DNA from: an uncultured Acidobacteriota bacterium
Lineage (GTDB): Bacteria > Acidobacteriota > UBA6911
Direction of reading: 5' to 3'
NCBI GenBank assembly: GCA_963809485.1
Contig: CAWEJX010000007.1
Coordinates: forward strand, 1-64,000
Length of the DNA: 64,000 nucleotides
The position numbers and the translations under genes were made by a program. Numbering within the stretch: the stretch's first letter is position 1; each line of letters opens with the position of its first letter. Positions 1-60,245 of this stretch are shown piece by piece. The notes beneath the pieces are model-generated. The model was given only the letters and a program-made list of their open reading frames with translations, was not told the DNA's origin and ran no database searches.

Positions 1-7
1 CTCTGGC

Positions 8-2390
8 CTCGCTGTACCCCACAGGTGAGACTGTGGCTCAAGGGCCAGCCCTCACTCCATGGATCTGTAGAGCCAGCCGATAGCCTTGCGCCATGCTTGG
101 CAGACGGCCCAGCCCCCTCCACATACATGTTGTACCCGGATTGTCAGTTTTCCCTCTGCTCAGCCAACCACCCAGTTTGCCAATCCAGTGCATCGCCTGT
201 TTGGTACTGGGAACTGTATCGGCAATCTTGCCTGTTGCCCAGGCGCTCAGCACATGCCATTCATCTTCACTGAGTATTTGATTGCACGGTGTCTCCGGTT
301 TTTCTCGGCCCACCATAGTAAGCCAGTAGACTCGCCAAGCCACCACAAGGTCGATTGCTAGGCAAGCCTGAATGCTCTCGGCATCATCCAACCGACGATC
401 CTCGATACGGCATCCGCTTTTTATCGTGCGATGATATACTTCAATTCCCCAACGTCGGGCATACCAACTCAGTCGCTCGCAAGCATCTTCAAAGCTCTCT
501 GTCTTGACTGAAGTCAAAAGCATCCAATCAATAGGTTCTTTGACTTCGACGCCATAGTCGACTTCCCGCGCATACACCGCCCATACGCTCAAGGCTGGGA
601 GCTTGCTTTTTGACGGTGGGTTGAGCATTATTCGGGAAAACCTCACTTGAATCTTAGCTGTCCGAGCTGGGCTCGAACCTCGACGCGGGACTGCGACATC
701 GACCAATCCGGCTACGGGCTCTCCCTCCATCTTCTTCCACAGTTCTTCCTTATTGTCCTCCTCGATGACCGCTCGATTTCGAGCGCGATCGGCACGGATT
801 AGCAGCTTCGCACCTGATGTATCCTGTGCGGCTTCATGGAACAGCTCGTAGATGTCGGCCTCTCGATCGCCGACGCTCACAAGCATCGTATCCGAGCAGA
901 TCTTTTGTACCTCGCTTACGGCTCGGTAACTCACCAGCCATTTCTTGCTTTCTTTGGCTTCGATCGGCAGTTGGTGGCGGCGGCGCTTTTTGCCCACGTC
1001 GTTCGGATCCCGCGCCCAACATTGCACGTCGAGCAGTCCCAGCGGTATGCCCTCGGGAGTAAACGCCATCGTGTCGTGAAGCTCCAGCCCCATGGCGCTA
1101 TTCTGACTGTTATTGATTGGACCGACTCCCTCAGGTGGGTGCGCGGTGTAGTTCAGCGAACTCGTGTCCTGTACCGCCAGTATCACCTTATGCGTACGCA
1201 GCCGTTCAATGGTCGACTCAATGTGCGGTCTGAGTAGCTTCTGCATATCCACGTTGTCATTCTGAAAAAATCGGTACGCTGCTTTTGTCTTTGCTTTCGA
1301 GCCGCTGGATGCCTGCGGAATCAGTTCCCCAGGTTGCGCAAAAAAATCCGCCGCCAACGTGAACAGCCGGGATTTGAGCCGTTGATCGAAAAACTGCACC
1401 CGCCCGAATTCTTCTTCGGTCCAGTCGTCTGGGGCTTCGAACTGCGGCGTGTTTCCCAGCACTACCTTCGGCTCCGTACTTAGCACCTTTTGCCAATCGC
1501 CACGGAGCGGATACAAGTAGATGTCTTTGGGCCCTTTTGCTACCTTCCCGTTGGGATACGCCGTATCCTCCGCCGCTGTCTGCCCGACATGCAACCAATT
1601 AGCCGCTCGATAGCACGTCCCGACAAAACGGCTCGGGTCCACAAAGGTCTCGACCAACACCGGCCGGTAATTATAGCGGTCTACCCAGTCATCCGCCAGC
1701 CGGCCCAGACACTGGCTCAGTACATGCGAAGCCAGGTTCGGAACGTGCACGCCGGGCAAAATCAGAAATCGGCTATTACAAACAACCAGATTCAGATTGG
1801 CACGTCGAGCTGCCTCGGTCCAGCCAATATATTTATCTCGTTTCTTCAACCGCCACTGTGCAGCGCTGAAAGCCAGTGCTCCAACAAACCCATGTTCTGA
1901 ACTCTCTACCAAGTAGCGAATCTGTGCGCCGCACAGAGGCCCTTTGCCCAAATAATGGAATTGCTCCACGAGAGTATTCCATATCTTCGACGCCTTGCTG
2001 TAGCGGCTGGAGACAGGAGCAATGCTTATCTTACCGAGTTCATCCAGAGTGCATTCTAGCTCAGACACATCAGCCATTAGATCAGGCGGCGGCTTGGAGC
2101 TAGATCGATTGAAACAGGATTCCGCAGCCGCCGGCAGATTGAGAAAACCGCGGCGGTGCAATTCAAGCAGCGCTTTTCTGCAACTAACCTCCTTGATTTT
2201 GCCGTTAGGCGATTTCCACTGCAGAAGCTCGCAAACGCGCTGAGACAGGGCACAACGAGACAAAGAGGGATTGGCACTCAAGATCCCTCCAATCTGGGCA
2301 ATTACCTCCGCGCTGAACTCGCGCCCACACAGTCGCATGGGTTATGTATAGCATCAAACACCCACAGTGTCAACTGTGTCCCGCAGCGAG
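8..2390 (-). mobile_element. IS4-family (IS50/Tn5-like) insertion sequence, copy 1, 2383 bp
   Basis: Imperfect terminal IRs (CTCGCTGTACCCCACAG at 8; CTGTGTCCCGCAGCGAG ending at 2390). TSD GGCTCTGGC at 2391-2399, with its last 7 nt (CTCTGGC) at 1-7, cut by the window edge. Near-identical to 51360-53742. Confidence 0.95.
38..2338 (-). CDS. IS4-family transposase with N-terminal DUF4338 (DruA-like) domain, 766 aa
   Basis: Tn5-like motifs: DQRLKSRL, KAAYRFF, LAVQDTS, VGDREADIYEL, WYARRWGIEVYHRTIKSGC, LGGWL..PG. N-terminal ~290 aa has HYLG, NSRFLILP, VETFVDP..GTCYRAANW. Confidence 0.93.
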   Translation of the reverse strand: MRLCGREFSAEVIAQIGGILSANPSLSRCALSQRVCELLQWKSPNGKIKEVSCRKALLELHRRGFLNLPAAAESCFNRSSSKPPPDLMADVSELECTLDELGKISIAPVSSRYSKASKIWNTLVEQFHYLGKGPLCGAQIRYLVESSEHGFVGALAFSAAQWRLKKRDKYIGWTEAARRANLNLVVCNSRFLILPGVHVPNLASHVLSQCLGRLADDWVDRYNYRPVLVETFVDPSRFVGTCYRAANWLHVGQTAAEDTAYPNGKVAKGPKDIYLYPLRGDWQKVLSTEPKVVLGNTPQFEAPDDWTEEEFGRVQFFDQRLKSRLFTLAADFFAQPGELIPQASSGSKAKTKAAYRFFQNDNVDMQKLLRPHIESTIERLRTHKVILAVQDTSSLNYTAHPPEGVGPINNSQNSAMGLELHDTMAFTPEGIPLGLLDVQCWARDPNDVGKKRRRHQLPIEAKESKKWLVSYRAVSEVQKICSDTMLVSVGDREADIYELFHEAAQDTSGAKLLIRADRARNRAVIEEDNKEELWKKMEGEPVAGLVDVAVPRRGSSPARTAKIQVRFSRIMLNPPSKSKLPALSVWAVYAREVDYGVEVKEPIDWMLLTSVKTESFEDACERLSWYARRWGIEVYHRTIKSGCRIEDRRLDDAESIQACLAIDLVVAWRVYWLTMVGREKPETPCNQILSEDEWHVLSAWATGKIADTVPSTKQAMHWIGKLGGWLSRGKTDNPGTTCMWRGLGRLPSMAQGYRLALQIHGVRAGP

Positions 2391-2749
2391 GGCTCTGGCG
2401 GGGGACTCAAAGAGTTTGACAGCTCCGTATTTTGAAACGCTGACAAACGCCGATTTGTTCGGCGAGGGTCGGCGAGCAAAAGCCGATGAGGCGCTTCCGA
2501 TGGAGTTTTCTGCGGCGGCACTGTGGCAAGCGCCGTGCGGCAAGGAGATGAAGGGTATGAGAAACCGGGCATTTGCCACAGTGCCGCCGCAGAAAACTGT
2601 CCAGCGCGGAGCGCTGGCCCCTGCGGGGATCGGAAGCGCCTCATCGGCTTTTGCCCGCGTAAGTCAGCGTTCAAGACCGGCGTAACTCCTCCAACCGCTT
2701 TGAGTGGTTCAAATCTTTCAAGCCTCCGGTTTTGCCGGAGGCACCTGAC
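2391..2749 (+). mobile_element. Non-autonomous IS200/IS605-end element (PATE/MITE), copy A, long form
   Basis: Left end GGCTCTGGCGGGGGACTCAAAGAGTTTGACAGC and right end AACCGCTTTGAGTGGTT...AAGCCTCCGGTTTTGCCGGAGGCACCTGAC resemble IS200 tnpA element ends. Nested 26-bp IRs inside. No transposase. Four further copies in the window. Confidence 0.8.
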
Positions 2750-2762
2750 AGCCTGCCATCTT

Positions 2763-4052
2763 CTACATTTCCTGTTCGCGGAATTCGCCGGCCAGCCGGG
2801 TGAATAGCGCCAGGATGGCGATGCCCACGATTGTGTGCAGCGCCAGCATATACCACAGGTACTCGGGATGCCCCTGGTCGGTGAAGCGGCCGTAGAGGGT
2901 CGTGTAGGTCACGCCGCTCAATGTGCCCCCGATCATGGTCGCAAGGAAGTTCATTCCCATGTAAAGCCCCGCCTTTTCCCGCGGAGCTATCCACGTGATG
3001 TATTCCTGGATACGGGGAGAGGAAATCATCTCACCGACTGCAAAAAGAAATATTCCCAGGAATATCAGAGCCGGGACCGAAATCCGGGAATAGCCTATGA
3101 CACAGAATCCGGCGGTCGCCAGCAGAAGGCCGAAAAGGAAAGTCGGCATGGGCTTGCGTTTTTCAAAGATCCGGGACACCAGGAACTGGAAGATCATGAT
3201 GATGTATCCGGTGTGCGAAATTGTCTCGCCCAGGACCCTGCGCGTGCCGTCCTCGCCCTGGCTGGAAAAAAGCCCTGCCAGTGTAGGGCCGAGAACGGAT
3301 TCCATGCTGCGGTAAAGCCGGACAGTGTCCAGGCTGGCATCGACGTAGAGGGCGCAGAGGTTGAAGAAACTCCAGAACGGAAGCCAGAAAAAAAGGCCGA
3401 GCAGGATCAAAAATGCGGTCAATTTGAAATCGCAAAGAGCGGTGCCGATGTCCCGGAATTTCTGTTTAAGCGTCGTTCCCTCGATCTCCCTTTGCGGTTC
3501 CTTGTAGAAGAAGATCGTGATCAGCAGCATCAGAGTGACACATACAGCGCCCGCGAAAAACGCATAGTTCCAGGAGATCGCCCTGAGGTTGCCCATGACC
3601 ATTGGCCCGAAAGAGCCGCCGACATTCACCATCTGGTAAAAAATGCCGAACCCGAGGGACTTGTTGGTGCCGTCGGTGACGGCGCGCACCGTCCCGGCCA
3701 CCAGCGGCTTGAAAATACCTGCTGCAAGGCCGATGGAGAGCATCGTCAGAGCAATGCCCGAGAACGACCGGGTCACGATGAGCAGGAGAATCGAGGGCAG
3801 ATAGGCAAGATAGGAAATGATCAGGACCTTTTTAAAACCGAAGCGGTCGGCGAAGCTTCCGGAGATTACGGGGATGCCGTACGACAGCAAGAGAAAGATG
3901 CTCTGCACGATACCGAGTTGGGCCCGCGTGAAGCCCAGGGAAGCCATATAGATCCCGAAACCGAAATACACGCCGTAATAGGCGAATCGCTCCAGAACCT
4001 CGATGAAGTTGGCAATCCAGAAGACCCGGGGGAAAGGGGTGCGTTTGCTCAT
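2763..4052 (-). CDS. MFS transporter, POT/PTR peptide:H+ symporter-like
   Basis: EVLERFAYYG motif, ADRFG, GFGIFYQMVNVG, about 12 hydrophobic segments. GGAGG RBS before the ATG at 4052. Confidence 0.88.
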   Translation of the reverse strand: MSKRTPFPRVFWIANFIEVLERFAYYGVYFGFGIYMASLGFTRAQLGIVQSIFLLLSYGIPVISGSFADRFGFKKVLIISYLAYLPSILLLIVTRSFSGIALTMLSIGLAAGIFKPLVAGTVRAVTDGTNKSLGFGIFYQMVNVGGSFGPMVMGNLRAISWNYAFFAGAVCVTLMLLITIFFYKEPQREIEGTTLKQKFRDIGTALCDFKLTAFLILLGLFFWLPFWSFFNLCALYVDASLDTVRLYRSMESVLGPTLAGLFSSQGEDGTRRVLGETISHTGYIIMIFQFLVSRIFEKRKPMPTFLFGLLLATAGFCVIGYSRISVPALIFLGIFLFAVGEMISSPRIQEYITWIAPREKAGLYMGMNFLATMIGGTLSGVTYTTLYGRFTDQGHPEYLWYMLALHTIVGIAILALFTRLAGEFREQEM

Positions 4053-6300: not shown

Positions 6301-6547
6301 AGTCAGGCACCTCCGGCAAAGCCTGAGGTTTGAAAGATTTGAACCGCTCAAAGCGGTTGGACTAGTTACGCTGGCCTTGAACGCTGACTTACGCGGGCAA
6401 AAGCCGATGAGGCGCTTCCGATCCCCGACTCTCGCCGAACAAATCGGCGTTTGTCAGCGCTTTGGTCAGCGTATCTCAGCGTTTCAAAATACGGAGCTGT
6501 CAAACTCTTTGAGTCCCCCGGCAGAGCGGGAGGCTTACCAATGTAGT
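6301..6547 (-). mobile_element. IS200-end PATE/MITE, copy B (lacks the inner module)
   Basis: Reverse complement of copies A and E with both terminal hairpins. Only one arm of the outer 26-bp IR is kept. Confidence 0.8.
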
Positions 6548-6590
6548 TACAATCCTTGAAAATTGCCCAATGGCCTGGTAATATTCAAGA

Positions 6591-41368: not shown

Positions 41369-41573
41369 AGTCAGGTACCTCCGGCAAAGCCGGAGGCTTG
41401 AAAGATTTGAACCGCTCAAAGCGGTTGGAGGAGTTACGCCGGCCTTGAATGCTGACTTACGCGGGCAAAAGCCGACCTTCGCCGAAGAAATCGGCGTTTG
41501 TCAGCGTTTTAAAATACGGAGCTGTCAAACTCTTTAAGTCTCCCGGCAGAGCCGGGGGTTTGCCAATGTAATT
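41369..41573 (-). mobile_element. IS200-end PATE/MITE, copy C (shortest complete form)
   Basis: CCTCCGGCAAAGCCGGAGG, AACCGCTCAAAGCGGTT and CCCGGCAGAGCCGGG hairpins. Interior reduced. Confidence 0.8.
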
Positions 41574-41580
41574 AAAAACA

Positions 41581-51162: not shown

Positions 51163-51190
51163 TTCGAACATCTTTGGGGGATTTCGAGGT

Positions 51191-51359
51191 TCAACCGCTC
51201 AAAGCGGTTGAAGGAGTTACGCTGGTCTTGAACGCTGACTTACGCGGGCAAAAGCCGATGAGGCGCTTCCGATCCCCGCCGAACAGATCGGCGTTTGTCA
51301 GCGTATCTCAGCGTTTCAAAATACGGAGCTGTCAACTCTATGAGACCCCCGGCAGAGCC
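51191..51359 (-). mobile_element. IS200-end PATE/MITE, copy D, interrupted by IS4 copy 2 (continues 53743-53770)
   Basis: Same body as copy B. The terminal hairpin CCCCCGGCAGAGCC|AGGGG is split by the IS. The outermost right-end hairpin is absent. Confidence 0.8.
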
Positions 51360-53742
51360 CTCGCTGCGGGACACAGTTGACACTGTGGGTGTTTGATGCT
51401 ATACATAACCCATGCGACTGTGTGGGCGCGAGTTCAGCGCGGAGGTAATTGCCCAGATTGGAGGGATCTTGAGTGCCAATCCCTCTTTGTCTCGTTGTGC
51501 CCTGTCTCAGCGCGTTTGCGAGCTTCTGCAGTGGAAATCGCCTAACGGCAAAATCAAGGAGGTTAGTTGCAGAAAAGCGCTGCTTGAATTGCACCGCCGC
51601 GGTTTTCTCAATCTGCCGGCGGCTGCGGAATCCTGTTTCAATCGATCTAGCTCCAAGCCGCCGCCTGATCTAATGGCTGATGTGTCTGAGCTAGAATGCA
51701 CTCTGGATGAACTCGGTAAGATAAGCATTGCTCCTGTCTCCAGCCGCTACAGCAAGGCGTCGAAGATATGGAATACTCTCGTGGAGCAATTCCATTATTT
51801 GGGCAAAGGGCCTCTGTGCGGCGCACAGATTCGCTACTTGGTAGAGAGTTCAGAACATGGGTTTGTTGGAGCACTGGCTTTCAGCGCTGCACAGTGGCGG
51901 TTGAAGAAACGAGATAAATATATTGGCTGGACCGAGGCAGCTCGACGTGCCAATCTGAATCTGGTTGTTTGTAATAGCCGATTTCTGATTTTGCCCGGCG
52001 TGCACGTTCCGAACCTGGCTTCGCATGTACTGAGCCAGTGTCTGGGCCGGCTGGCGGATGACTGGGTAGACCGCTATAATTACCGGCCGGTGTTGGTCGA
52101 GACCTTTGTGGACCCGAGCCGTTTTGTCGGGACGTGCTATCGAGCGGCTAATTGGTTGCATGTCGGGCAGACAGCGGCGGAGGATACGGCGTATCCCAAC
52201 GGGAAGGTAGCAAAAGGGCCCAAAGACATCTACTTGTATCCGCTCCGTGGCGATTGGCAAAAGGTGCTAAGTACGGAGCCGAAGGTAGTGCTGGGAAACA
52301 CGCCGCAGTTCGAAGCCCCAGACGACTGGACCGAAGAAGAATTCGGGCGGGTGCAGTTTTTCGATCAACGGCTCAAATCCCGGCTGTTCACGTTGGCGGC
52401 GGATTTTTTTGCGCAACCTGGGGAACTGATTCCGCAGGCATCCAGCGGCTCGAAAGCAAAGACAAAAGCAGCGTACCGATTTTTTCAGAATGACAACGTG
52501 GATATGCAGAAGCTACTCAGACCGCACATTGAGTCGACCATTGAACGGCTGCGTACGCATAAGGTGATACTGGCGGTACAGGACACGAGTTCGCTGAACT
52601 ACACCGCGCACCCACCTGAGGGAGTCGGTCCAATCAATAACAGTCAGAATAGCGCCATGGGGCTGGAGCTTCACGACACGATGGCGTTTACTCCCGAGGG
52701 CATACCGCTGGGACTGCTCGACGTGCAATGTTGGGCGCGGGATCCGAACGACGTGGGCAAAAAGCGCCGCCGCCACCAACTGCCGATCGAAGCCAAAGAA
52801 AGCAAGAAATGGCTGGTGAGTTACCGAGCCGTAAGCGAGGTACAAAAGATCTGCTCGGATACGATGCTTGTGAGCGTCGGCGATCGAGAGGCCGACATCT
52901 ACGAGCTGTTCCATGAAGCCGCACAGGATACATCAGGTGCGAAGCTGCTAATCCGTGCCGATCGCGCTCGAAATCGAGCGGTCATCGAGGAGGACAATAA
53001 GGAAGAACTGTGGAAGAAGATGGAGGGAGAGCCCGTAGCTGGATTGGTCGATGTCGCAGTCCCGCGTCGAGGTTCGAGCCCAGCTCGGACAGCTAAGATT
53101 CAAGTGAGGTTTTCCCGAATAATGCTCAACCCACCGTCAAAAAGCAAGCTCCCAGCCTTGAGCGTATGGGCGGTGTATGCGCGGGAAGTCGACTATGGCG
53201 TCGAAGTCAAAGAACCTATTGATTGGATGCTTTTGACTTCAGTCAAGACAGAGAGCTTTGAAGATGCTTGCGAGCGACTGAGTTGGTATGCCCGACGTTG
53301 GGGAATTGAAGTATATCATCGCACGATAAAAAGCGGATGCCGTATCGAGGATCGTCGGTTGGATGATGCCGAGAGCATTCAGGCTTGCCTAGCAATCGAC
53401 CTTGTGGTGGCTTGGCGAGTCTACTGGCTTACTATGGTGGCCCGAGAAAAACCGGAGACACCGTGCAATCAAATACTCAGTGAAGATGAATGGCATGTGC
53501 TGAGCGCCTGGGCAACAGGCAAGATTGCCGATACAGTTCCCAGTACCAAACAGGCGATGCACTGGATTGGCAAACTGGGTGGTTGGCTGAGCAGAGGGAA
53601 AACTGACAATCCGGGTACAACATGTATGTGGAGGGGGCTGGGCCGTCTGCCAAGCATGGCGCAAGGATATCGGCTGGCTCTACAGATTCATGGAGTGAGG
53701 GCTGGCCCTTGAGCCACAGTCTCACCTGTGGGGTACAGCGAG
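51360..53742 (+). mobile_element. IS4-family insertion sequence, copy 2, 2383 bp
   Basis: Same IRs as copy 1. 9-bp TSD GGCAGAGCC at 51351-51359 and 53743-53751. Confidence 0.96.
51412..53712 (+). CDS. IS4-family transposase with N-terminal DUF4338-like domain, 766 aa
   Basis: Matches copy 1. The only protein difference I found is MVAREK versus MVGREK, plus a few silent changes. Confidence 0.93.
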   Translation: MRLCGREFSAEVIAQIGGILSANPSLSRCALSQRVCELLQWKSPNGKIKEVSCRKALLELHRRGFLNLPAAAESCFNRSSSKPPPDLMADVSELECTLDELGKISIAPVSSRYSKASKIWNTLVEQFHYLGKGPLCGAQIRYLVESSEHGFVGALAFSAAQWRLKKRDKYIGWTEAARRANLNLVVCNSRFLILPGVHVPNLASHVLSQCLGRLADDWVDRYNYRPVLVETFVDPSRFVGTCYRAANWLHVGQTAAEDTAYPNGKVAKGPKDIYLYPLRGDWQKVLSTEPKVVLGNTPQFEAPDDWTEEEFGRVQFFDQRLKSRLFTLAADFFAQPGELIPQASSGSKAKTKAAYRFFQNDNVDMQKLLRPHIESTIERLRTHKVILAVQDTSSLNYTAHPPEGVGPINNSQNSAMGLELHDTMAFTPEGIPLGLLDVQCWARDPNDVGKKRRRHQLPIEAKESKKWLVSYRAVSEVQKICSDTMLVSVGDREADIYELFHEAAQDTSGAKLLIRADRARNRAVIEEDNKEELWKKMEGEPVAGLVDVAVPRRGSSPARTAKIQVRFSRIMLNPPSKSKLPALSVWAVYAREVDYGVEVKEPIDWMLLTSVKTESFEDACERLSWYARRWGIEVYHRTIKSGCRIEDRRLDDAESIQACLAIDLVVAWRVYWLTMVAREKPETPCNQILSEDEWHVLSAWATGKIADTVPSTKQAMHWIGKLGGWLSRGKTDNPGTTCMWRGLGRLPSMAQGYRLALQIHGVRAGP

Positions 53743-53790
53743 GGCAGAGCCAGGGGTCTACCAATAGAATCAACTCCCGGAACTATAAAA

Positions 53791-58989: not shown

Positions 58990-59847
58990 TCAACACGAAA
59001 CCCGCCCTTCAAACAATGCGAGGAAGATAGCCGCGGCAGTCAGATCAGCGGCAGTCCCGGGATTCAGTTCGTGGGCCGGATCGCGCAGTCCCCGGTCCAT
59101 TTCCGCCAGTTCCGCCCGACCCCCGGGAGTGAAGACGCCGCCCCGCGCCAGAACTTCTCCGGCCCAGAGGGAAACCCGCCGCGCTTCCTCAATGCCCTTT
59201 TTGCGCGCGATGAGGGTATCCGGAACCCGGCTGAGAACGGTCAGGAAGGCTTGCACAACCGCAGCGGAAAAACCAGCTCCGCGGGATGAGGCTTCTTTCA
59301 GGGCCGGAAGGCCGATTTCAAATGTGATTGCATAGCCGGTGACATATTCCCGGGCTACCGCATCGCGCTCCCGGGCCAGAGACATGGCCTGCAACAAGGT
59401 AACCGACGGTTCTTCTGCGATGTCTGCTTGCGGGACATGGCCCAGACCCGCAGGCTGCGCAAGCCTGATGGCGGCGTATGCAAGCCGGGCATCTTCCACG
59501 GTAAGCGAATCCAGGACAGCGCCCAGGTTCTGCCGGAGATCCTGCACGCAGTCTGCCGATGCCATGCAGGCCTTGACGAGCGGAACCAGCAACAGGACCA
59601 TGCCCAGGTTCGTGTTGGATCGCACACTCCTGCGCGTATCTGCAACGGCCTGAAGGACTGTGTGCCCGACCCCCATCGGGCCCGCATTCTCGAGCGCCGG
59701 CCCGATGGCAATGGCGCTGACAAGAAAATCTTCCAGCGTCGTGTCCGGAAAATCATGCGAGCGGTTTACGTTGCCGGGCTTGGGCGCACAGGCCTCCAAA
59801 ATGCAGGCCATTTGCGCAAGCCGGGAGATCCGTTTCTCAGTATTCAT
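58990..59847 (-). CDS. CitG-like triphosphoribosyl-dephospho-CoA synthase family protein of H4MPT clusters (Orf7-like)
   Basis: ACILEACAPKPGNV, NTNLGMVLLL, PDTLIARK, NPGTAADL. Confidence 0.85.
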   Translation of the reverse strand: MNTEKRISRLAQMACILEACAPKPGNVNRSHDFPDTTLEDFLVSAIAIGPALENAGPMGVGHTVLQAVADTRRSVRSNTNLGMVLLLVPLVKACMASADCVQDLRQNLGAVLDSLTVEDARLAYAAIRLAQPAGLGHVPQADIAEEPSVTLLQAMSLARERDAVAREYVTGYAITFEIGLPALKEASSRGAGFSAAVVQAFLTVLSRVPDTLIARKKGIEEARRVSLWAGEVLARGGVFTPGGRAELAEMDRGLRDPAHELNPGTAADLTAAAIFLALFEGRVSC

Positions 59848-60245
59848 AATTACATTGGTAAACCCCCGGCTCTGCCATGGGACTCAAAGAGTTTGACAGC
59901 TCCGTATTTTGAAACGCTGAGAAACGCTGATAAAAGCGCTGACAAACGCCGATTTGTTCGGCGAGGGTCGGCGAGCAAAAGCCGATGAGGCGCTTCCGAT
60001 GGAGTTTTCTGCGGCGGCACTGTGGCAAACGCCCGGTTTCTCATCCCCTTCATCTCCTTGCCGCACGGCGCTTGCCACAGTGCCGCCGCAGAAAACTGTC
60101 CAGCGCGGAGCGCTGGCCCCTGCGGGGATCGGAAGCGCCTCATCGGCTTTTGCCCGCGTAAGTCAGCGTTCAAGACCGGCGTAACTAGTCCAACCGCTTT
60201 GAGCGGTTCAAATCTTGCCTACGGCTTTGCCGGAGGTACCTGACT
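59848..60245 (+). mobile_element. IS200-end PATE/MITE, copy E, long form
   Basis: Colinear with copy A except that the 43-bp core is inverted. Fills the whole gap between the RimK-like stop and the citG-like start. Confidence 0.82.

What the first reader, a model, noticed from the sequence alone, without database searches (positions are those of the whole stretch)
8..2399. IS4 element that targets the terminal hairpin of an IS200-derived MITE
Seen: both IS4 copies (8-2390 and 51360-53742) sit at the same position and in the same relative orientation inside the MITE left-end hairpin CCCCC-GGCAGAGCC-(A/G)GGGG. Each duplicates the central 9 bp (GCCAGAGCC and GGCAGAGCC). The two TSDs differ by one base, so these are independent insertions. 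Known: some IS elements target REP palindromes, but Tn5-like transposases are normally weakly specific. Inference: this IS uses another element's end as a renewable safe harbour. It would probably also immobilise that host copy by breaking the hairpin TnpA needs.
Basis: partly seen in the sequence, partly recalled or inferred. Interest (0 to 1): 0.8.

Follow-up and report, generated by a model that had tools for sequence, protein, structure and literature searches.

The report
Hairpin-seeking Tn5-like insertion sequence
A jumping gene related to Tn5 inserts precisely at the centre of a short GC-rich hairpin that marks the end of another, very abundant mobile element, an unusually exact landing site for this kind of transposase, although hairpin-targeting jumping genes of other kinds are already known.

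Summary
Confirmed and extended. The 2383-bp IS has 4 copies in the genome. All 4 split the same 19-nt hairpin (CCCCCGGC-AGA-GCCGGGGG) at its dyad, each with a 9-bp duplication. The hairpin is the left-end hairpin of a repeat with about 270 copies. Both ends of that repeat align to a tnpA-bearing IS200 in a related genome, so "IS200-derived MITE" holds. The insertions are independent. MITE flanks differ by about 6-14% and the IS copies by 0.04-0.17%. One copy carries a variant duplication on both sides.

In 38 relatives (49-86% aa identity) with usable flanks, 25 split a C-run/N9/G-run hairpin, against about 1.9% of control sites. The hairpin stem sequences differ between relatives. Some are IS200 left or right ends.

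The transposase is a complete Tn5-type enzyme with an extra N-terminal wHTH and a GNAT-like DUF4338/DruA domain. Shared orientation is not a rule.

An IS4-family element that targets REP palindromes, ISRm22, was described in 2006. I therefore rate this a new variant of a known kind.

The parts
1..7 (.). Partial second copy of the target-site duplication of IS copy 1. Only 7 of 9 nt are present because the contig begins here. It reads GCCAGAG on the minus strand.
8..2390 (-). IS copy 1, 2383 bp, 99.83% identical to copy 2. Terminal inverted repeats begin CTCGCTG.
38..2338 (-). Transposase ORF of 766 aa plus stop. It has a wHTH (about residues 1-62), a GNAT-like DUF4338/DruA domain (about 100-290) and a Tn5-type transposase (303-757). 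The DDE and YREK residues are kept.
2391..2399 (.). 9-bp target-site duplication of copy 1 (GCCAGAGCC on the minus strand). This is the variant target.
2391..2749 (+). Rest of the host MITE of copy 1 (long form). It runs from the broken left-end hairpin to the right end. The right-end hairpin cctccggttttgccggagg lies at about 2722-2740, and the element ends ...cacctgac at 2749.
51185..51359 (-). Host MITE of copy 2 (short form, right end degenerate), ending in the 5' half of the left-end hairpin plus the duplication GGCAGAGCC (51351-51359). The start coordinate is approximate.
51360..53742 (+). IS copy 2, 2383 bp.
51412..53712 (+). Transposase ORF of copy 2 (766 aa plus stop).
53743..53772 (-). 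Second duplication copy GGCAGAGCC (53743-53751), the 3' half of the hairpin (AGGGG) and the MITE left-end tail TCTACCAATAGAATCA. The end coordinate is approximate.
6301..6550 (-). Empty copy of the same MITE (unoccupied, decayed hairpin). Further empty copies lie at about 41404-41575 and about 59845-60240.

Best explanation
This is a 2383-bp cut-and-paste insertion sequence of the IS4 family, Tn5/IS50 type. Its transposase carries an extra N-terminal module of about 300 aa: a winged-helix-like domain followed by a GNAT-like DUF4338/DruA domain. It transposes with near site-specificity into a palindromic target of the form C-run(4-6) / 9 bp / G-run(4-6). The two staggered cuts lie 9 bp apart and symmetric about the dyad. 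As a result the loop and the three inner stem pairs are duplicated, and the outer stem arms end up on opposite sides of the element.

In this genome the only abundant sequence of that form is the subterminal left-end hairpin of an IS200-derived MITE with about 270 copies. All four IS copies therefore sit in MITE ends, which are gene-free and act as renewable landing sites.

Shown here: the precision of the site, the independence of the insertions, the IS200 origin of the MITE, the domain make-up of the transposase, and the same habit in relatives.

Inferred: a two-fold symmetric transposase dimer reads the two C/G arms, either in duplex or in extruded cruciform DNA. The N-terminal module may help in this. 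Insertion should disable the MITE copy for IS200 TnpA.
For: - Site precision. 4 of 4 genomic copies sit at the same nucleotide of the same hairpin, each with a 9-bp duplication. There are about 276 such ends in 6.04 Mb.
- Independence. Every pair of copies differs by 1-4 of 2383 nt in the IS. Their MITE flanks differ by about 6-14%, with indels and short versus long forms (Fisher p <= 1e-8 for each of 6 pairs). Copy 1 has the variant GCCAGAGCC on both sides, and an empty site with that variant exists at C21:178620.
- The MITE came first. Same-genus genome G006 carries the MITE, with 15 matches, but no match to the transposase at E <= 1e-30. None of the 29 same-genus genomes has a full-length match. 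Their matches cover only about residues 1-300.
- Relatives. Of 47 full-length loci, 43 got automatic end calls and 38 had at least 14 nt on both sides. Of those 38, 25 (23 of 36 distinct sites) pair at >= 4 of 5 outer stem positions across the IS. The control values are 1.8% of random 19-mers in this genome and 1.9% in the same loci's flanks. Stem sequences differ between lineages (GGC/GCC, CGC/GCG, AGC/GCT, TTT/AAA) while staying complementary. 11 of 38 have perfect 9/9 direct duplications.
- IS200 ends in relatives. 5 of 43 junctions lie next to IS200 left-end or right-end motifs.
- Other samples. Contigs of runs X1 and X2 show a 95-100%-alike IS joined to the same left-end hairpin.
- Transposase. 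It matches Tn5 transposase at E 1.7e-33 over residues 303-757, with D, D, E and Y-R-E-K aligned. The DruA Pfam hit scores 122.9 bits against a cut-off of 27. The N-terminal model has pLDDT 83 and a GNAT fold.
Against: - Nothing here measures transposition. All evidence comes from fixed copies.
- 13 of 38 relatives do not reach 4/5 outer pairs. Some of these are mis-called ends (L055, L061, L084) or duplications offset by one base. Others (L038, L072) show no clear hairpin on one side. Support thins in the 49-59% identity band, where only 2 of 7 pass.
- In 4 of 38 loci the two flanking 9-mers are reverse complements rather than direct repeats. This needs later inversion, recombination or mis-assembly to explain.
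- The N-terminal module cannot by itself be the hairpin reader. A 35%-identical IS with the same domains in complete genome G056 has CTAG-centred 8-9 bp duplications and no hairpin. A DUF4338-ISAs1-type element in this genome is not in hairpins either.
- Only 41 of the MITE left-end hairpins are perfect, and the three readable occupied sites are imperfect. A perfect stem is therefore not required.
- 2 of 3 occupied sites read AGGGG after the duplication, against 0 of the 184 empty sites (187 examined, 3 of them occupied left junctions). This is unexplained.
Confidence: 0.82

Rival explanations
1. Structure-specific reading. The transposase, through its wHTH/GNAT-like module, recognises an extruded cruciform or a single-stranded hairpin rather than duplex sequence. 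Any stable GC hairpin of the right geometry would then be a target.
For: - Inner stem triplets vary between lineages but stay complementary (GGC/GCC, CGC/GCG, AGC/GCT, TTT/AAA). 16 of 38 loci have >= 4/5 outer pairs plus 3/3 inner pairs, against 0.05% of control sites.
- At a hairpin with a 4-nt loop (L035) the duplication appears to be 10 bp, still symmetric about the loop.
Against: - The targets may be palindromic simply because abundant C5-N9-G5 sites in genomes are REP- or IS200-type hairpins. In this genome 45 of 63 C5-N9-G5 sites already have 3/3 inner pairs.
- The occupied sites here have imperfect stems.
- Tn5-type strand transfer uses duplex targets (established knowledge, recalled).
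- The same N-terminal domains occur in elements that do not hit hairpins.
Confidence: 0.25
2. One ancestral insertion was copied into other MITE copies by homologous recombination or gene conversion, with the MITE flanks serving as homology arms. No targeted transposition would be needed.
For: - The IS is flanked by repeated DNA on both sides.
- The rare AGGGG variant just outside the duplication is shared by 2 of 3 occupied sites and 0 of 184 empty ones. This could be a conversion tract running out of the IS.
Against: - Copy 1 has the variant 9-mer on both sides. Conversion from a GGCAGAGCC donor would not produce that.
- Homology on the left-end side is only about 30 bp.
- Relatives in unrelated hosts are in hairpins of quite different sequence, with their own perfect 9-bp duplications (11 of 38).
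Confidence: 0.04
3. Insertion is random, and only copies that landed in harmless MITE DNA have survived purifying selection.
For: MITEs are intergenic and dispensable. IS copies in genes would be lost.
Against: Selection cannot give single-nucleotide precision. The MITEs are about 190-400 bp, and several percent of the genome is intergenic. Even so, 4 of 4 copies here, and most relatives, are at the exact dyad of a 19-nt hairpin.
Confidence: 0.03
4. The MITE with the IS inside moved as one composite, mobilised by an IS200 TnpA. The IS would be a passenger rather than a targeter.
For: IS200/IS605 elements can carry passenger genes (established knowledge, recalled).
Against: - The IS breaks the left-end hairpin that TnpA binds.
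- MITE flanks of the four copies are 6-14% diverged and of different length classes, while the IS copies are nearly identical.
- The IS has its own 9-bp duplications.
- The only closely related tnpA found here has an in-frame stop.
Confidence: 0.01

Closest known systems
ISRm22 of Sinorhizobium meliloti (IS4 family, IS4Sa subgroup)
   Same: A DDE element of the IS4 family. All of its copies (10 of 10) are inserted in REP palindromes at the axis of the palindrome, with GC-rich palindromic consensus targets. Some copies have non-matching repeats, ascribed to recombination between copies. Source: passages of PMC1525189, and a passage of PMC2266710 for the subgroup.
   Different: - ISRm22 makes 6-bp repeats, not 9-bp ones.
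- It belongs to a different subgroup.
- Its only listed Pfam domain is Transposase_11 (Table 2 of PMC1525189), so no DUF4338 module is on record.
- Its targets are REPs, not the end of another transposon.
- I could not compare sequences, because no ISRm22 sequence was at hand.
IS50 / Tn5
   Same: - Residues 303-757 align to the whole Tn5 transposase (E 1.7e-33), with DDE and YREK kept.
- It has the Tnp_DNA_bind and Tn5 dimerisation domains.
- Its ends begin 5'-CT and it makes a 9-bp duplication. Both match the IS50 subgroup in Table 1 of PMC2266710 (passage read).
   Different: - It is 2383 bp against 1350-1550 bp for the subgroup.
- It has about 300 extra N-terminal residues (wHTH plus GNAT-like domain).
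- It is near site-specific, whereas Tn5 shows only a weak symmetric consensus (recalled, and as described in PMC1525189).
IS1397 / ISKpn1 (IS3 family) and IS621, ISPpu9, ISPpu10 (IS110 family)
   Same: Insertion sequences that land at a fixed position inside REP palindromes and so use an abundant repeat as a safe site (passages of PMC1525189; abstracts in the listing).
   Different: These are unrelated enzymes. The IS110 elements pick the site with a bridge or seek RNA (abstracts of PMC11208160 and PMC11187229, search listing only). Nothing like that was seen here: Rfam gave no hit in the window, and the IS is filled by one ORF.
IS231A inserting into the ends of Tn4430 (Bacillus thuringiensis)
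   Same: An IS4-family element that prefers the terminal repeats of another transposon. This is recalled. The only support seen here is a reference title on the 'structural association' of IS231 with Tn4430 in the reference list of PMC6199540.
   Different: Different subgroup (IS231), 10-12 bp repeats (Table 1 of PMC2266710), and a Tn3-family inverted repeat rather than an IS200 hairpin as target.

Membership tests
IS4 family, IS50 (Tn5-like) subgroup | DDE catalytic triad and Y-(2)-R-(3)-E-(6)-K signature | tested here: met
   The alignment to Tn5 transposase 1muh_A pairs query D391 with Tn5 D97 (my count along the printed alignment). The second D lies in 'vgDreadi'. 'YarRwgiEvyhrtiK' lines up with Tn5 'YthRwriEefhkawK'. 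NCBIfam IS4 family transposase NF033590 scores 394.6 bits against a cut-off of 160.
IS4 family, IS50 (Tn5-like) subgroup | Short terminal inverted repeats beginning 5'-CT, and an 8-9 bp target duplication | tested here: met
   The ends read CTCGCTG...CAGCGAG. Duplications of 9 bp are seen at 3 copies, plus 7 of 9 nt visible at the fourth. Subgroup features are taken from Table 1 of PMC2266710.
IS4 family, IS50 (Tn5-like) subgroup | Typical size of 1350-1550 bp with a transposase of about 450-480 aa | tested here: not met
   The element is 2383 bp and the transposase 766 aa. The excess is the N-terminal wHTH plus DUF4338 module. In the plasmid collection, 0 of 653 matching records cover 80% or more of the protein. 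The listed matches cover only about residues 293-763.
IS200/IS605-derived MITE (the host repeat) | Both ends homologous to the ends of an element that encodes a Y1 (IS200-type) transposase | tested here: met
   An element of about 660 bp in G060 (3 copies, 98-99% alike) encodes a Y1_Tnp protein (PF01797, 129 bits). Its left and right ends align to the MITE ends, including both hairpins and the neighbouring motifs AGAGTTTGACAG and CCGCTTTGAGCGG.
IS200/IS605-derived MITE (the host repeat) | Subterminal hairpins on the same strand at both ends, no terminal inverted repeats, no target duplication | tested here: met
   The left end reads T(A)ATTAC-ATTGGTAAA-CCCCCGGCTCTGCCGGGGG. The right end reads CCTCCGGCTTTGCCGGAGG-TACCTGAC. 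In 160 complete copies no direct repeat is enriched at any tested boundary (best result: 1 match).
IS200/IS605-derived MITE (the host repeat) | Mobilised in trans by a matching TnpA | not testable with these tools
   None of the 4 Y1_Tnp hits in the genome is flanked by MITE ends. The closest, at 58% aa identity to the G060 TnpA, has an in-frame TAG and a different hairpin. The assembly is 95.67% complete, so absence is not shown.
DruA / DUF4338 (PF14236) domain | Match to the Pfam model above its cut-off, and a GNAT-like fold | tested here: met
   122.9 bits against a cut-off of 27 over residues 61-255. The AlphaFold model (pLDDT 83.3) matches GNAT acetyltransferases such as SpeG at E 6e-6, TM about 0.6 normalised to the target. 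PMC10853773 calls DUF4338 a GNAT-like domain (passage read).
Druantia defence system | DruA encoded together with DruB-E (large helicase DruE) | tested here: not met
   The domain is fused inside a single-ORF IS bounded by inverted repeats and duplications. No room for partner genes exists inside the element. Neighbouring genes were not scanned for DruE.

The most novel reading that the evidence does not exclude
The wHTH plus GNAT-like DUF4338 module is a transferable DNA-shape reader, bolted onto different DDE transposases (Tn5-type here, ISAs1-type elsewhere in this genome). In this clade it steers a Tn5-type enzyme to the dyad of cruciform or hairpin DNA. The element would then be a specialised parasite of the TnpA-binding hairpins of IS200-type elements and of REP-like repeats, silencing those copies as it spreads. 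If so, the function of DruA in Druantia might also be recognition of hairpin or structured DNA.
Probability: 0.15. Interest if true: 0.85.

Novelty: new variant of a known kind. Interest (0 to 1): 0.6.

Why it matters
Tn5-type transposases are the standard example of near-random insertion and are widely used for that reason. This natural clade of the same enzyme type lands at one nucleotide position of a small palindrome.

The clade is large. 5764 homologues scored E <= 1e-20 among the 8000 candidates scored, and the best 120 all carry the three-domain architecture. Almost all are labelled 'hypothetical' by their sources.

It offers a tractable system for asking how a symmetric DDE transpososome acquires target specificity. 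It also gives a possible handle on the function of DUF4338/DruA, which is unknown. Finally, it is a clear case of one mobile element living inside the recognition hairpin of another. That bears on how IS200-derived MITEs and REP-like repeats are kept in check and why they persist.

Tried and rejected
- Rfam scan of the window: no family reached its threshold. No known guide RNA or structured RNA explains the targeting.
- Search for an autonomous partner of the MITE in this genome. None of the 4 Y1_Tnp hits is flanked by MITE ends. No TnpB (PF07282) hit was found. MITE end pairs more than 450 bp apart were listed but not examined further.
- My first two automatic end-finders for relatives failed or picked internal repeats. 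The third still mis-calls some ends (L055, L061, L084) and found none for L036, L075, L081 and L086. The counts use those calls uncorrected, so they are conservative. L039, L044, L052, L057 and L060 were dropped because a flank was shorter than 14 nt.
- Folding three decayed window copies of the hairpins as DNA gave weak, mostly non-significant energies (z -2.5, -0.3, -1.0). This says only that these particular copies are degraded.
- Plasmid collection: only the Tn5-like part matches, at <= 40% identity, and there is no fused form.
- Read laying: all four runs are Logan contigs. They show junctions but cannot show frequency, activity or absence. No joint across an empty site was reported.
- Literature. 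The search 'DUF4338' + 'transposase' gave 2 papers, and neither describes this element. 'IS4 family'+REP+palindrom+insertion site+transposase from 2007 on gave 12 papers, none on a DUF4338-Tn5 fusion judging by title and abstract. The DruA/Druantia search was used only as a listing. Supplementary alignments of PMC1525189 and PMC2266710 (ISRm22 sites, IS50 subgroup ends) were not opened and may bear on how close ISRm22's targets are.
- The taxon of the organism was not determined.
Full report
**Observation.** The window is the first 64 kb of contig C7 of a 6.04-Mb, 21-contig assembly. The element at 51360-53742 (+) is 2383 bp. It begins CTCGCTGCGGGACACAG, ends CTGTGGGGTACAGCGAG, and is flanked on both sides by GGCAGAGCC. 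The copy at 8-2390 (-) is 99.83% identical. It is followed by GCCAGAGCC (minus-strand reading of 2391-2399). On its other side only 7 nt remain before the contig end, and they read GCCAGAG. BLAST of the element against the whole genome finds exactly four copies, all full length and 99.83-100% identical. Oriented by the transposase gene, all four have the same left flank...GAG(T/A)CCCCC-G(G/C)CAGAGCC. The three readable right flanks read GGCAGAGCC-(A/G)GGG(G/A)-T(C/T)TAC(C/T)AAT....

**The host repeat.**
- Abundance and ends. The left flank is part of a very abundant repeat. A 175-nt query gives 703 BLAST pieces, 276 of which reach the hairpin end and 267 the other end. The consensus of one end is (A)GTCAGG(T/C)A-CCTCCGGCAAAGCCGGAGG-CTTGAAAGATTTGAACCGCTCAAAGCGG. 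The consensus of the other end is GAGT-CCCCCGGCAGAGCCGGGGG-TTTACCAATGTAATTA. Each hairpin has an 8-bp stem and a 3-nt loop.
- Size and boundaries. Paired ends fall into two size classes, about 150-250 bp and about 350-400 bp. In 160 complete copies the conserved sequence stops at T(A)ATTAC on one side and CCTGAC(T) on the other. No target duplication is enriched.
- IS200 origin. A genome of the same class (G060) has three 98-99%-identical elements of about 660 bp whose ends match the repeat. They encode a 137-aa frame that scores 129 bits on Y1_Tnp (IS200-like transposase). Alignments A2 and A3 show that the left-end hairpin with the following AGAGTTTGACAG, and the right-end CCGCTTTGAGCGG with its hairpin, are shared.
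- No intact partner found. In this genome I found no intact partner. None of the 4 Y1_Tnp hits is flanked by MITE ends. The closest, at 58% aa identity to the G060 TnpA, has an in-frame TAG, a different hairpin (CGCCGCC-TCT-GGCGGCG) and no recognisable right end. No TnpB was found. The assembly is 95.67% complete, so this means 'not found', not 'absent'.

**Independence of the insertions.**
- For all six pairs of copies the IS differs at 1-4 of 2383 positions. The adjoining MITE sequence differs at about 6-14%, with indels. Two copies lie in short-form MITEs and two in long-form MITEs (Fisher p between 1e-8 and 3e-27).
- Copy 1 has the variant 9-mer on both sides, and one empty MITE with exactly this variant hairpin exists at C21:178620. 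A copy made by recombination from a GGCAGAGCC donor would not have the variant on both sides.
- The same-genus genome G006 has the MITE (15 matches, 159 first-look candidates) but no transposase match. None of the 29 same-genus genomes has a full-length match. The IS therefore arrived after the MITE had spread.

**Relatives.**
- Sources. Genome and metagenome scans gave 5 and 58 loci that encode relatives. I analysed 47 loci that encode a full-length or nearly full-length relative (49-86% aa identity).
- Tally. Automatic end-calling succeeded for 43 of them, and 38 had at least 14 nt on each side. In 25 of those 38 (23 of 36 distinct sites), at least 4 of the 5 bases just outside the left 9-mer pair with the 5 bases just outside the right 9-mer. 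Seventeen distinct sites pair at 5 of 5. The control values are 1.8% for random sites in this genome and 1.9% for 52,697 sites in the flanks of the same loci.
- Arm composition. 28 of 38 left arms have at least 4 C, and 25 of 38 right arms have at least 4 G.
- Identity bands. The tally is 5 of 6 at 80% identity or above, 17 of 23 at 70-79%, 1 of 2 at 60-69% and 2 of 7 at 49-59%.
- Hairpin sequences. They differ between IS lineages: CCCCC-GGCTCTGCC-GGGGG, CCACC-CGCAGAGCG-GGTGG, (C)CCC-CGCACAGCG-GGG(C), CCCCCC-AGCTCTGCT-GGGGGG, CCCCC-TTTGAAAAA-GGGGG, CCTCC-CCTTCAGGG-GGAGG and CCCGGCC-GTCA-GGCCGGG.
- Duplications. Eleven loci have perfect 9/9 direct duplications. In four loci the two 9-mers are reverse complements of each other. 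Three of these have long inverted flanks, which points to inversion between copies or to mis-assembly.
- IS200 ends. Five of 43 junctions lie beside IS200 end motifs, three of the left-end type and two of the right-end type. These motifs occur 0 times in the remaining 52 kb of those loci.
- Other samples. Contigs of two coded soil-metagenome runs carry an IS 95-100% alike over the laid pieces. Its left end is preceded by TAATTACATTGGTAA in X2, and its right end is followed by GGC+TCTGTCGGGGGAC in X1. That is the same left-end hairpin in the opposite orientation to the four copies here. L041 and L073 also lie the other way round. Orientation is therefore not fixed.

**The transposase.**
- The 766-aa protein has three Pfam hits: DruA/DUF4338 (residues 61-255, 122.9 bits), Tnp_DNA_bind (305-363) and the Tn5 dimerisation domain (665-756).
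- Residues 303-757 align with essentially the whole Tn5 transposase (E 1.7e-33). The three acidic residues and the YREK signature are in register.
- An AlphaFold model of residues 1-300, built on 22 homologues (pLDDT 83.3), shows a three-helix winged-helix-like unit (about 1-62), a disordered linker (73-84) and an alpha/beta domain. The alpha/beta domain matches GNAT acetyltransferases (best E 5.9e-6). This agrees with the description of DUF4338 as GNAT-like in PMC10853773 (passage).
- The fused architecture is common in environmental data. 5764 proteins scored E <= 1e-20 among the 8000 candidates scored. The best 120 (72-100% identity) all carry the three Pfam domains, and most sit on contigs about the length of the IS. 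It was not found in the plasmid collection: 0 of 653 matching records cover 80% or more.

**Mechanism.** The data show a target of the form C-run / 9 bp / G-run that is cut symmetrically about its dyad. A Tn5-type transpososome is a two-fold symmetric dimer that makes 9-bp staggered joints (established knowledge). Symmetric reading of the two arms is thus the simplest model. Whether the arms are read in duplex DNA or in an extruded cruciform cannot be decided here.
- For structure reading: the inner stem varies in sequence but stays complementary, and at a hairpin with a 4-nt loop the duplication appears to be 10 bp.
- Against reading too much into this: abundant C5-N9-G5 sites are palindromes anyway, at 45 of 63 in this genome, of which 41 are GGCAGAGCC or its complement.
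- The N-terminal module is an obvious candidate for the extra specificity, but it is not sufficient. The 35%-identical element of complete genome G056 matches the transposase over nearly its whole length (query residues 14-755) and has 8-9-bp CTAG-centred duplications with no hairpin. A second element of this genome fuses DUF4338 to an ISAs1-type transposase and has ordinary 9-10-bp duplications.

**Consequences for the MITE.** The insertion separates the two arms of the hairpin by 2.4 kb. IS200/IS605 TnpA binds that hairpin at the left end (established knowledge of the family), so the occupied copy should no longer be mobilisable. This is inference. It has no present effect if the genome really lacks a working TnpA.

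**Comparison with what is known.**
- REP palindromes as IS targets were catalogued in 2006 (PMC1525189, passages read). The catalogue includes ISRm22, an IS4-family element with 10 of 10 copies at the palindrome axis and 6-bp repeats. The authors noted that Tn5 target sites tend to be palindromic.
- 'IS4 family goes genomic' (PMC2266710, passages read) places ISRm22 in subgroup IS4Sa. It lists the IS50 subgroup as 1350-1550 bp with 8-9-bp repeats and 5'-CT ends.
- The element here meets the catalytic, end and duplication criteria of the IS50 subgroup but not its size, because of the added module.
- My two literature searches for the fusion found no description of it.
- I therefore rate it a new variant of a known kind. 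The new elements are the enzyme architecture, the precision for a Tn5-type enzyme, and the use of IS200 end hairpins as targets.

**Verdict.** Interest 0.6.

Noticed in passing
window 53752-53756; G000:C20:244444-244448: In 2 of the 3 occupied sites with a readable right flank, the base just after the duplication is A (AGGGG). None of the 184 empty MITE left-end sites with GGCAGAGCC (187 examined) has AGGGG. This could be a conversion tract between IS copies, a target preference for a rare variant, or a repair footprint.
   Followed up: partly
G000:C20:1043419-1045762 and G000:C6:268328-270671: A second element of 2344 bp, in two 100%-identical copies. Its transposase fuses a DUF4338 domain (36% identical to the one here) to an ISAs1-type N-terminus. 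The frame is broken into 541 aa plus 160 aa. Its duplications are 9-10 bp and are not hairpins.
   Followed up: partly
L002 (G000:C15:224127-227471): A Y1_Tnp gene is surrounded by arrays of two alternating hairpins (CCGTCGC...GCGACGG and CCCGGCCTT..AAGGCCGGG). This looks like a REP-associated tyrosine transposase with its REPs, and it is distinct from the MITE hairpins.
   Followed up: no
window 2470-2650; also G000:C20:241800-241990: Long-form MITEs carry an extra internal segment of about 185 bp that is itself a long near-perfect palindrome. It includes an inverted copy of CAAAAGCCGATGAGGCGCTTCCGAT and an inner pair CAGTTTTCTGCGGCGGCACTGTGGCAA / its complement.
   Followed up: no
L001:1338-1900 (G000:C6:298384-298946): A degraded IS200 copy. 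Its left end is built like the MITE's (TAATT..GGTAAA + hairpin + ACTC.AAA) but with stem CGCCGCC/GGCGGCG. Its tnpA has an in-frame TAG, and no right end is recognisable.
   Followed up: partly
last 11 nt of G000:C11 and about 15-25 nt from the end of G000:C16: Two contig ends carry 9-11 nt identical to the right end of the IS (GGTACAGCGAG; CTCGCTGTA). This may be chance, or it may hint at further unassembled copies or solo ends.
   Followed up: no
L078, L043, L058 (whole loci): In these metagenome contigs the IS is flanked by inverted copies of the same flank over more than 70 nt, and the two 9-mers are reverse complements. The cause is either inversion by recombination between two oppositely oriented copies or an assembly fold-back.
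   Followed up: no
L008-L034 (relatives of the same genus and family): Stand-alone DUF4338 proteins of about 310 aa, 35-40% identical to the N-terminal module, occur in 12 of 29 same-genus genomes (that tally includes G000, whose own matches are full-length) and in several other genera. Several carry one in-frame TGA. Their neighbours were not examined.
   Followed up: no
L035:1435-1448 and 3829-3842: At a hairpin with a 4-nt loop (CCCGGCC-GTCA-GGCCGGG) the repeat flanking the 83%-identical relative is 10 nt (GCCGTCAGGC), not 9. It stays symmetric about the loop, although one base could belong to the IS ends.
   Followed up: partly
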